DNA of 64,000 nt from Escherichia coli (GTDB taxonomy: Bacteria > Pseudomonadota > Gammaproteobacteria > Enterobacterales > Enterobacteriaceae). Positions 30,001 to 33,000 of this stretch are shown here, one piece after another. The position numbers were made by a program. The number at the start of each line of letters is the position of its first letter. The stretch's first letter is position 1. Where the stretch lies: NCBI RefSeq assembly GCF_003334335.1, contig NZ_QOWQ01000001.1; one strand, given 5' to 3'.

Positions 30001-33000
30001 CGTCGACATCGTGCTTTGTTTCAGTAAATTGCCACCGTTATGGATTGGTGCAGCGTCTTCTGCCAGCGCCGCTTCTGGCGTGGTGATAACGGGTAATTCT
30101 TGCCACTCAATGCTGACCAATTGCGCCGCTTTTTCTGCCGTGAGTTCATCGCGGGCCACGACGATGGCAACGGCGTCACCATGATGACGAACATGGCGAG
30201 TTAGCAGTGCGCGATCGGCGGTATCGCGCTTGTTTTCGTCAAGTGTCCAGGCATGCCCAGCTGTAGCGAATGGAATATCAGGCACATCTTCCCAGGTAAA
30301 AATCGCCAGTACGCCCGGCAAACTTCTGGCTTGTTCATCATTAATACTTACGGCATAACCATGTGCGATAGGGCTACGTACATATTTCGCATAACACATG
30401 CCCGCCATAACATAATCGTCAGTATATCGTGCCCGCCCGGTGACCTTAGCAATGGCATCGACGCGCATGCATGATTCACCCGTAGCGGTTGCTTCCCGCG
30501 CTTCCATAGAAATCCCCTCGATTTGAACATTTGGTTCTTATGGCAAAGATTTAGTCTAAGCAGGCAAGATTTACGCCAGAAACGACGATAAGCGTTAGGG
30601 GAGGTAGGAAGTGTGATGACGTTAAAAAAACACAGATATGATACGAAACAGGACTCTGAATAGGGGCAGTGATACGTATCAATATGAGTGGCGATAAAAT
30701 CAATGTGATAAATTGGGATTATTACGCATCAGGATGGGAAATAGGGTAAAAAGTCAGGAAGTTCGATACCTCTACAGCGAATATTTTGCTGATGATACTT
30801 CCCTTTGCCAAATGAAATTAACCTCTTTCTCTATTACCACGTTTTTCCAGAAGCAAGAGATTGGGTATCAAGAGGCTGGCTGCTATGATAAGGCGTCTTG
30901 TTTTTTAAGCGAGGAAAGATTTTGAGTGCGGGACGCCTGAATAAAAAATCTCTGGGTATCGTGATGTTGTTATCGGTTGGACTGCTTTTGGCGGGCTGTT
31001 CGGGTAGCAAATCATCCGATACAGGAACGTATTCCGGCTCCGTTTACACCGTGAAACGGGGGGATACGCTATATCGTATTTCGCGCACCACGGGAACCAG
31101 CGTAAAAGAACTGGCGCGACTGAACGGCATTTCCCCCCCTTACACCATTGAAGTTGGTCAGAAACTAAAACTGGGTGGGGCGAAAAGTAGCAGTATTACA
31201 CGTAAATCAACCGCCAAATCAACGACCAAAACCGCATCGGTTACACCGTCATCAGCGGTACCGAAATCATCCTGGCCGCCAGTAGGGCAACGTTGTTGGT
31301 TATGGCCAACGACAGGGAAAGTTATCATGCCGTATTCGACAGCAGATGGCGGCAATAAAGGGATTGATATCTCAGCTCCACGGGGTACACCTATTTACGC
31401 CGCGGGTGCAGGAAAGGTGGTGTATGTGGGCAACCAGCTGCGTGGCTACGGTAATCTCATCATGATTAAACACAGTGAAGATTACATTACGGCTTACGCC
31501 CATAATGACACGATGCTGGTAAATAATGGGCAAAGCGTGAAGGCTGGGCAAAAAATCGCCACTATGGGGAGCACGGATGCGGCATCTGTTCGCCTGCATT
31601 TCCAGATTCGTTACCGTGCAACGGCAATTGATCCGCTACGTTACTTGCCGCCTCAGGGCAGCAAGCCAAAATGCTGATGGCGAATTAATCAGCAGTCAGC
31701 AGCGTGGCACTTGCTAAGGAGAGCGTAAGGTTTATAATGCCTTACGCATCTCGAAGCGGGCGTAGTTCAATGGTAGAACGAGAGCTTCCCAAGCTCTATA
31801 CGAGGGTTCGATTCCCTTCGCCCGCTCCAATTTATCTTCGCCGTAATACTTCCCCATTTTGTTGTAAATAAAAAGCGTTTACGCAATGCAATCCTTTTGT
31901 AACAACCCAGGTAAAACACCTTATTTTCAAGTTGTTAAATAAGTGGTTATCTACGCTTTTAACAAACGATTGATGGAATATTTTATGAAAGGGAAATCTG
32001 CATTAACTCTTCTGCTCGCTGGTATATTTTCGTGCGGCACATGCCAGGCGACAGGGGCAGAAGTGACGAGTGAATCTGTATTTAACATTCTTAATTCCAC
32101 GGGGGCAGCAACAGATAAAAGTTATTTATCGTTAAATCCAGATAAGTATCCTAATTATCGTCTTCTGATTCACTCAGCCAAATTACAAAATGAAATAAAG
32201 AGCCACTATACCAAAGACGAAATTCAAGGATTGCTAACATTAACAGAAAACACACGAAAGTTAACGTTGACGGAGAAACCCTGGGGAACGTTTATTCTTG
32301 CTTCTACTTTCGAAGATGACAAAACAGCGGCAGAAACCCACTATGATGCTGTCTGGTTGAGGGATAGTTTATGGGGCTATATGGCATTAGTATCAGATCA
32401 GGGAAATAGTGTAGCCGCAAAAAAGGTTCTGCTCACCCTGTGGGATTATATGTCTACGCCCGACCAGATTAAGCGGATGCAGGACGTCATTAGCAACCCA
32501 AAACGACTGGATGGAATTCCCGTGCAAATGAATGCTGTGCATATCCGATTTGACAGCAACTCCCCCGTGATGGCAGATGTGCAGGAAGAAGGCAAGCCGC
32601 AGCTGTGGAACCATAAACAAAATGATGCTTTAGGTCTTTACCTTGATCTCCTTATACAAGCAATCAACACTGGTACTATTAACGCTGAAGATTGGCAAAA
32701 AGGTGACCGATTAAAGTCGGTTGCGCTGCTGATTGCTTATCTGGATAAAGCCAATTTCTATGTTATGGAAGATTCCTGAGCATGGGAAGAAGATGCCCGA
32801 TTAAACACATCTTCCGTTGCACTGGTGACCTCTGGACTGGAACGTTTGTCAAACCTACTCTCGAAGAAAGACTCTGTTTTTGTCTCTGATTTACTACGCG
32901 AAGCTAAAGTCAATGAACTGGATGAAACTCTTTCAACAACGAGGTTGAACCACCTCATAGATAAAGGTTATGAAAGAATAACGTTACAGCTTGATTTAGG

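What the first reader, a model, noticed from the sequence alone, without database searches (positions are those of the whole stretch)
32740..32830. Single in-frame UGA two codons before the putative catalytic WEE motif of a secreted GH15 glucoamylase-like gene
The two ORFs 31985-32779 and 32825-33595 are in the same frame and are separated by exactly one TGA (32777-32779), giving ...FYVMEDS*AWEEDARLNTSS... The rest of the roughly 537-codon frame is clean, which suggests a recent nonsense mutation. A 7-bp hairpin (gaagatg...catcttc) starts about 10 nt downstream of the UGA, so recoding cannot be excluded outright, though I consider it unlikely.
Basis: seen in the sequence. Interest (0 to 1): 0.45.

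Follow-up and report, generated by a model that had tools for sequence, protein, structure and literature searches.

The report
Known nonsense pseudogene: E. coli ygeQ
The in-frame TGA is a single G-to-T mutation that broke ygeQ, a glucoamylase-like gene at the edge of the decaying ETT2 secretion island of Escherichia coli; the lab strain K-12 carries the same mutation, so this is an ordinary, already catalogued pseudogene and not a recoding signal.

Summary
One TGA at 32777-32779 interrupts an otherwise clean 537-codon frame (31985-33598), one codon before a WEE motif.

- **Locus.** This is E. coli ygeQ (b2863, called pkgA in ETT2 papers). It is the first gene of the ETT2 type III secretion island, next to tRNA-Gly glyU.
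- **Ancestral codon.** Intact E. coli alleles read GGA (Gly) here, so the only change at this codon is G->T at 32777. This Gly is invariant in 25 homologues down to 38% identity (motif D-S-G-x-W-E-E). It is also Gly in phosphorylase kinase alpha and beta.
- **Spread.** 945 of 3466 complete E. coli genomes holding this segment carry the exact TGA version, K-12 derivatives among them. At least 2083 carry GGA.
- **Other lesions.** The gene is also broken by a 5-bp deletion in O157:H7. On the TGA background, IS1, IS421 and IS2 events hit the downstream half. The rest of ETT2 in the window is decayed too.
- **Recoding.** Rfam finds no SECIS here, while the fdhF SECIS control scores 87 bits in the same mode. 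The hairpin is also present in all three GGA alleles examined and lies in sequence coding for conserved residues.

Verdict: a lineage-specific nonsense pseudogene that is already known. Interest is low.

The parts
31985..33598 (+). Complete frame of the disrupted GH15-like gene ygeQ (b2863, pkgA): 536 codons plus terminal stop, broken at codon 265
   Evidence: Translation. 100% identical to loci annotated 'protein YgeQ' plus 'hypothetical protein' in RefSeq E. coli genomes. The intact 536-aa allele is annotated 'glycoside hydrolase family 15 protein'.
32777..32779 (+). Premature TGA, codon 265. T at 32777 replaces the ancestral G (GGA, Gly)
   Evidence: Alignments with intact alleles from NB4833, 88-3493 and O157:H7. 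Gly265 is invariant in 25 homologues.
32783..32791 (+). W267-E268-E269 codons (GH15-type WEE motif), now downstream of the stop
   Evidence: W267, E268 and E269 are invariant in alignment A2. They align with the 'WE' of PhK alpha/beta 'DFG[IV]WERG'.
32789..32814 (+). 7-bp inverted repeat GAAGATG/CATCTTC with a 12-nt loop; an incidental hairpin inside coding sequence
   Evidence: Seen in sequence. z = -0.04. The repeat is the same in all three GGA alleles examined. No SECIS model match.
31985..32050 (+). Signal-peptide-like N-terminus (MKGKSALTLLLAGIFSCGTCQA)
   Evidence: Read from the sequence: basic n-region, hydrophobic core, C-Q-A before T23. Most homologues have a hydrophobic N-terminus. 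Inference; no predictor was run.
32825..33595 (+). Downstream half of the same gene. Mechanical ORF from GTG 32825; PGAP calls it from TTG 32846 as 'hypothetical protein'. Not an independent gene
   Evidence: Same frame as the upstream half. No Shine-Dalgarno-like match before either start, 2-3 of 6 to AGGAGG. Homologues are single proteins. IS1, IS421 and IS2 lesions fall in this half on the TGA background.
31756..31829 (+). tRNA-Gly(CCC) glyU, the chromosomal boundary of the ETT2 island
   Evidence: ARAGORN. ETT2 is adjacent to glyU (PMC3977695).
33596..33727 (+). Deletion junction right after the gene. The window diverges from complete-ETT2 strains 13 nt after the stop codon, and a SpaN/EivJ C-terminal remnant follows
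   Evidence: Comparison with strain 88-3493. Annotation of a near-identical record.

Best explanation
The TGA at 32777-32779 is a loss-of-function nonsense mutation. A single G->T transversion turned the ancestral GGA (Gly265) of one GH15-like gene, E. coli ygeQ/pkgA, into a stop. ygeQ is the first gene of the horizontally acquired ETT2 type III secretion island beside tRNA glyU. Translation stops after residue 264, in the middle of the predicted (alpha/alpha)6 barrel. The invariant WEE motif and the whole C-terminal half are therefore not made. The downstream 'ORF' is the untranslated remainder of the same gene. The allele arose once in a lineage that includes K-12 and has spread with it. The frame still looks clean because the mutation is recent. 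Shown here: ancestral codon, invariance of the Gly, population frequency, absence of a SECIS, independent lesions. Inferred: loss of activity and lack of translation of the second half.
For: (1) Identity: 100% match to RefSeq loci annotated ygeQ, next to actS and tRNA-Gly and followed by ETT2 T3SS genes. The ETT2 review lists ECs3736/pkgA 'phosphorylase kinase and glucoamylase' as the homologue of b2863. (2) Ancestral codon: the intact allele of strain NB4833 differs at 6 of 1611 positions, one being G at 32777, giving GGA. Alleles of 88-3493 and O157:H7 also read GGA. (3) Constraint: Gly265, W267, E268 and E269 are invariant in 25 homologues of 38-75% identity, from E. albertii, Yersinia, Commensalibacter, Bifidobacterium, Elusimicrobiota and Bdellovibrionales. 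All are single proteins of about 470-610 aa. The same Gly is found in PhK alpha/beta 'DFG[IV]WERG'. (4) Frequency: the exact TGA 61-mer occurs in 945 of 3466 complete genomes holding the segment, and exact GGA 61-mers in 1656 + 427. K-12 derivatives DH1, XL1-Blue and MC4100 carry the TGA. (5) Continuing decay: on the 100%-identical TGA background the downstream half is hit by IS1, by IS421 and by an IS2-associated truncation in K-12. O157:H7 inactivated the gene independently by a 5-bp deletion. (6) Context: the same island in the window has lost the eiv genes. It carries frameshifts or stops in the YscQ, EscU, OrgA, ygeK, lytic transglycosylase and ygeF genes, matching the published 'mutational attrition' of ETT2. 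(7) The AlphaFold model of the intact protein (pLDDT 89.3, pTM 0.90) matches PhK beta and GH15 glucoamylases. Residue 264 lies mid-barrel.
Against: No expression data were examined, so neither the absence of full-length protein nor the presence of a stable N-terminal fragment is shown. The allele is common (about 27% of genomes with the segment), and RefSeq names the 264-aa product 'protein YgeQ' rather than flagging a pseudogene. About 438 genomes carry other 61-mer haplotypes and were not classified. The genome collection is enriched for K-12 laboratory derivatives, which inflates the TGA count.
Confidence: 0.95

Rival explanations
1. Selenocysteine recoding: the UGA is read as Sec, directed by the downstream hairpin acting as a bacterial SECIS.
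For: A UGA is followed 9 nt later by a 7-bp hairpin. E. coli has the Sec machinery, and the fdhF SECIS is present in 5419 of 5426 genomes.
Against: A sensitive Rfam scan (E <= 10) of 32600-33000 finds no SECIS family. The same mode on a 406-nt fdhF control gives SECIS_2 at 87.1 bits, E = 1e-19. The loop CCCGAUUAAACA has no GGUC-type apical loop or bulged U (sequence, compared with the fdhF fold). The 7-bp repeat is the same in alleles that read GGA, so it predates the stop. The position is an invariant Gly in homologues, never Cys or Sec.
Confidence: 0.003
2. Selected or regulated stop-codon read-through: near-cognate decoding of UGA (for example by tRNA-Trp) yields functionally relevant amounts of full-length enzyme.
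For: UGA is the leakiest stop codon in E. coli, and K-12 has a weak RF2 variant (own knowledge, not tested here). The downstream frame in this window is still intact.
Against: Read-through would put Trp or another residue at a Gly that is invariant across the family and in PhK. The downstream half tolerates IS1, IS421 and IS2 disruption on the TGA background, which argues against selection to keep it. No stimulatory structure stands out from shuffled sequence. The clean frame is explained by recency: only 5 other differences from the nearest intact allele.
Confidence: 0.03
3. Two genuine genes: the N-terminal 264-aa product (with signal peptide) and a separately initiated C-terminal product are both made and function, alone or as a split enzyme.
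For: RefSeq annotates both halves as CDS, 'protein YgeQ' and 'hypothetical protein'. In-frame GTG 32825 and TTG 32846 exist.
Against: All homologues, and most E. coli alleles, are one continuous gene. There is no Shine-Dalgarno-like sequence before either candidate start. The C-terminal piece would lack the signal peptide and the WEE motif, and the N-terminal piece would lack WEE and half of the barrel. The stop differs from intact alleles by one base at this codon.
Confidence: 0.015
4. Sequencing or assembly error in this window.
For: None specific.
Against: The identical 61-mer with TGA is present in 945 independently assembled complete genomes.
Confidence: 0.001

Closest known systems
E. 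coli K-12 ygeQ (b2863), RefSeq WP_000676919.1 'protein YgeQ'; pkgA / ECs3736-ECs3737 of the ETT2 island in O157:H7 Sakai
   Same: Same locus and same TGA. The K-12 derivative DH1 is 100% identical over bases 1-1137 of the gene, stop included. Position next to glyU at the end of ETT2 is the same.
   Different: K-12 also lost the 3' end of the gene through an IS2-associated deletion; the window keeps the full 3' half. O157:H7 has GGA at this codon but a separate 5-bp deletion frameshift.
ETT2 'mutational attrition' (Ren et al. 2004, J Bacteriol 186:3547, as cited in PMC7058095 and PMC3977695)
   Same: A point nonsense mutation in one ETT2 gene alongside deletions, frameshifts and IS insertions in its neighbours, as published for most E. 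coli lineages.
   Different: The primary paper is not in the held library. I could not confirm that this particular codon is described there.
Glycoside hydrolase family 15 (glucoamylase, glucodextranase) and the GH15-like N-terminal domains of phosphorylase kinase alpha/beta
   Same: Pfam PF00723 match. A profile match to PhK alpha/beta includes the G-x-W-E motif. The predicted (alpha/alpha)6-type fold matches PhK beta, Kribbella-type GH15 glycosidase entries and fungal glucoamylases.
   Different: The matches are distant: Pfam E = 2.9e-5, 11-18% identity, TM about 0.5. No NCBIfam model reaches its cut-off. Substrate and activity are unknown.
Bacterial SECIS element (fdhF type, Rfam RF01988)
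   Same: A UGA followed by a hairpin.
   Different: No covariance-model match, whereas the control scores 87 bits. Loop and stem features differ. The hairpin predates the UGA, and the ancestral residue is Gly.

Membership tests
Nonsense-mutation pseudogene of an otherwise intact gene | Orthologues or alleles have a sense codon at the position, one mutational step away | tested here: met
   GGA in NB4833, 88-3493 and O157:H7, against TGA in the window. Gly in 25 of 25 homologues.
Nonsense-mutation pseudogene of an otherwise intact gene | The truncation removes residues needed for function | tested here: met
   The invariant WEE (267-269) and 66 further invariant columns (69 of 81 in all) lie after codon 265. 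The truncation falls mid-barrel in the model. Loss of activity itself is inferred.
Nonsense-mutation pseudogene of an otherwise intact gene | Relaxed selection on the part downstream of the stop | tested here: met
   IS1, IS421 and IS2 events in the downstream half on the identical TGA allele.
Nonsense-mutation pseudogene of an otherwise intact gene | No full-length protein produced | not testable with these tools
   Needs proteomics, a western blot or ribosome profiling.
Bacterial SECIS / selenoprotein gene | Match to a SECIS covariance model immediately 3' of the UGA | tested here: not met
   No SECIS hit at E <= 10. The fdhF positive control gives 87.1 bits.
Bacterial SECIS / selenoprotein gene | Homologues carry Cys or Sec at the aligned position | tested here: not met
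   Invariant Gly.
Glycoside hydrolase family 15 (intact allele) | Sequence match to the GH15 profile | tested here: met
   PF00723, E = 2.9e-5, residues 94-401. The match is weak and partial.
Glycoside hydrolase family 15 (intact allele) | (alpha/alpha)6-barrel catalytic fold | tested here: met
   AlphaFold pLDDT 89.3, pTM 0.90. Foldseek hits to PhK beta, GH15 glycosidases and glucoamylases, probability 1.00, TM about 0.5.
Glycoside hydrolase family 15 (intact allele) | General-acid Glu in a W-E-(E) motif and a general-base Glu | tested here: inconclusive
   WEE is invariant and aligns with the PhK 'WE'. The base Glu was not mapped structurally; invariant E431 and E491 are candidates. The catalytic role of Glu in glucoamylase WEE is from own knowledge.
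Glycoside hydrolase family 15 (intact allele) | Glycosidase activity | not testable with these tools
   No experimental report was found in the held library.
ETT2 genomic island | Adjacent to tRNA glyU, low G+C, SPI-1-like T3SS genes | tested here: met
   tRNA-Gly(CCC) at 31756-31829. G+C is 34.7% for 31985-50700 against 50-51% in the flanks. T3SS genes are annotated in a record with 4 mismatches in 24.3 kb.

The most novel reading that the evidence does not exclude
The TGA allele is not simply dead. Either the exported 264-aa N-terminal fragment, kept under the name 'protein YgeQ' in about a quarter of sequenced E. coli, has a function of its own. Or low-level UGA read-through in weak-RF2 backgrounds such as K-12 yields a conditionally expressed enzyme.
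Probability: 0.03. Interest if true: 0.3.

Novelty: already known. Interest (0 to 1): 0.05.

Why it matters
It matters little. The result confirms a textbook case of gene decay in a horizontally acquired island that is being lost in E. coli. It also shows that the mutated Gly before WEE is invariant across a poorly characterised bacterial GH15-like family related to the phosphorylase kinase alpha/beta domains.

There is one practical point. RefSeq annotates the two halves as separate proteins ('protein YgeQ' and 'hypothetical protein') in hundreds of genomes, although they are fragments of one pseudogene. The intact allele, for example WP_000676938.1, is the form to use in any functional study.

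Tried and rejected
- **Fold-energy z-score as a recoding test.** The ygeQ hairpin gives z = -0.04, but the genuine fdhF SECIS also gives z = 0.09. The statistic does not discriminate, so I relied on the covariance-model test with a positive control.
- **Literature.** Searches for 'ygeQ', 'pkgA' and 'b2863' found only gene lists and the ETT2 review table. Ren et al. 2004 (PMC415751) is not held, so I could not check whether this exact codon is described.
- **NCBIfam.** No family reaches its cut-off for the intact protein or either half.
- **Promoter and terminator scan of 31700-33800.** Counts are at shuffle level, and nothing suggests an internal promoter for the second half.
- **Sequencing error.** Rejected because the same 61-mer is in 945 genomes.
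- **glyU as a UGA suppressor.** I considered whether the adjacent glyU tRNA could suppress UGA. Its anticodon is the normal CCC.

Full report
**Observation.** Translating window 31985-33597 gives 536 sense codons, one internal stop at codon 265 (TGA, 32777-32779) and a terminal TAA. The local peptide reads ...FYVMEDS*AWEEDARLNTSS.... The mechanical ORFs 31943/31985-32779 and 32825-33595 lie in the same frame. The inverted repeat GAAGATG (32789-32795) / CATCTTC (32808-32814) starts 9 nt after the stop.

**What the locus is.** The 1611-bp frame matches 3987 of 5426 complete E. coli genomes, always on the chromosome. In 100%-identical records the first half is annotated 'ygeQ: protein YgeQ' (WP_000676919.1) and the second half 'hypothetical protein'. 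In alleles of 96.7-99.6% identity the same span is usually one CDS, 'glycoside hydrolase family 15 protein'.

- The gene follows actS (ygeR) and tRNA-Gly(CCC) glyU. After it come SPI-1-like type III secretion genes.
- This places it as the glyU-proximal end of the ETT2 island. The ETT2 review lists the gene as ECs3736/pkgA, 'phosphorylase kinase and glucoamylase', homologue of K-12 b2863.
- The island stretch of the window has 34.7% G+C, against 50-51% in the flanks.
- The window matches E. coli O141:H4 P13-6 with 4 mismatches in 24.3 kb, and another 4 in the upstream 31.9 kb.

**The ancestral codon.** The nearest intact allele I fetched (strain NB4833) differs from the window at 6 of 1611 positions. 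One of them is G instead of T at 32777, giving GGA, Gly. Two more distant alleles, 88-3493 and O157:H7 Z1626, also read GGA. The K-12 derivative DH1 carries the same TGA.

I counted alleles with exact 61-mers centred on the site. 3466 genomes hold the segment. Of these, 945 have the exact TGA version, 1656 the NB4833-type GGA version and 427 the O157-type GGA version. About 438 have other local haplotypes that I did not classify. The collection is rich in K-12 laboratory derivatives, so the TGA share is probably inflated.

**Is the residue important?** A protein search with the intact allele returned 254 homologues. I aligned 25 of them at 38-75% identity. They include named sequences from E. 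albertii, Yersinia, Commensalibacter, Bifidobacterium, Elusimicrobiota, Planctomycetota and Bdellovibrionales.

- All are single proteins of roughly 470-610 residues.
- Gly265, Trp267, Glu268 and Glu269 are invariant, in the motif D/E-S/A-G-x-W-E-E.
- A profile of this alignment finds only phosphorylase kinase alpha and beta among solved structures. Their 'DFG[IV]WERG' aligns with 'DSGAWEEE', so the Gly is shared there too.
- Pfam gives a weak GH15 match, E = 2.9e-5.
- An AlphaFold model (pLDDT 89.3, pTM 0.90) matches PhK beta, GH15-type glycosidases and fungal glucoamylases at Foldseek probability 1.00.
- Residue 264 sits in the middle of the helical barrel. The truncated product therefore lacks WEE and half of the fold.
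- That the first Glu of WEE is the general acid in glucoamylases comes from my own knowledge. It was not tested here.

**Recoding.** I tested the SECIS idea with covariance models. A permissive Rfam scan (E <= 10) of 32600-33000 returned one chance snoRNA hit and no SECIS family. As a control I fetched 406 nt around the fdhF UGA. The same mode gave SECIS_2 at 87.1 bits (E = 1e-19) and SECIS_3 at 35.8 bits.

Four further points argue against recoding:

- The 7-bp repeat is the same in alleles that read GGA, so it predates the stop. It lies in sequence coding for the conserved EEDARLNTSS.
- Its fold energy equals that of shuffled sequence, z = -0.04. That statistic is weak evidence, because the true fdhF SECIS also scores z = 0.09.
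- A perfect 7-bp hairpin 5-15 nt downstream occurs at 1.5% of window positions, and after 26 of 1328 TGA triplets.
- Sec normally replaces Cys in homologues (own knowledge). Here the position is an invariant Gly.

**Two genes?** Neither in-frame restart (GTG 32825, TTG 32846) has a Shine-Dalgarno-like sequence. No internal promoter stands out. No homologue is split.

**Signs of decay.**

- On the identical TGA background the downstream half carries an IS1 insertion in WS4437A-1.
- It carries an IS421 insertion in ESY001.
- It is truncated by an IS2-associated event in K-12.
- O157:H7 inactivated the gene independently through a 5-bp deletion; PGAP flags it 'frameshifted'.
- In the window, the island diverges from complete-ETT2 strains 13 nt after the gene's stop codon, which marks the eiv deletion.
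- The YscQ, EscU, OrgA, ygeK, lytic transglycosylase and ygeF genes carry frameshifts or stops.
- This matches the published picture of ETT2 mutational attrition.

**Conclusion.** The TGA is a single G->T nonsense mutation at an invariant Gly of one GH15-like gene. It is shared with K-12 and about a quarter of sequenced E. coli that hold the segment, and it sits inside an island that is decaying throughout. The frame looks clean because the lesion is young: only five other substitutions separate it from the nearest intact allele. Nothing supports selenocysteine insertion, selected read-through or two independent genes. Loss of activity and lack of translation of the second half are inferred, not measured. 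The feature is ordinary and already known.

Noticed in passing
window 33596-47133 (ETT2 island): The island is extensively decayed. The eiv genes are deleted, with the junction about 13 nt after the ygeQ stop and a SpaN/EivJ remnant at about 33608-33727. Frameshifts affect YscQ (33687-34674), EscU (36377-37497, split near 37105), OrgA (41144-41724), a lytic transglycosylase (43246-43748) and ygeF (46644-47133). The LuxR-type ygeK has an internal stop (42595-43227, codon 52).
   Followed up: partly
L007 (E. coli O157:H7 Z1626) 301-1906; alignment columns 558-562 of the gene: O157:H7 carries GGA at codon 265 but has an independent 5-bp deletion that frameshifts the same gene. This probably explains why the Sakai annotation splits it into ECs3736 and ECs3737.
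   Followed up: partly
window 31985-32779 and 32846-33595; RefSeq WP_000676919.1 and WP_000067509.1: PGAP annotates the two fragments of this pseudogene as separate proteins ('protein YgeQ' and 'hypothetical protein') rather than as one pseudogene, and does so across many genomes. It is an annotation inconsistency, not biology.
   Followed up: yes
window 1-31700: The upstream half of the window is the purine catabolism cluster linked to selenium-dependent molybdenum hydroxylase (ygfT, xdhD, ygfM, ssnA, ygfK, mocA, yqeC, yqeB, ygeY, ygeW, xdhABC). These genes use a labile selenium cofactor, not Sec, so their nearness to the UGA finding is coincidental.
   Followed up: no
L006 2116-2295 and L007 1973-2152 (strains with complete ETT2): In strains without the eiv deletion, a small GhoT/OrtT-family toxin gene (ydcX-like, ECs3735) directly follows the GH15-like gene. 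It is absent from the window.
   Followed up: no
protein family of P0001-P0120: The intact YgeQ/PkgA belongs to a widespread, uncharacterised bacterial family of about 540 aa. By sequence its closest solved relatives are the GH15-like domains of eukaryotic phosphorylase kinase alpha/beta rather than bacterial glucoamylases. No substrate is known.
   Followed up: partly
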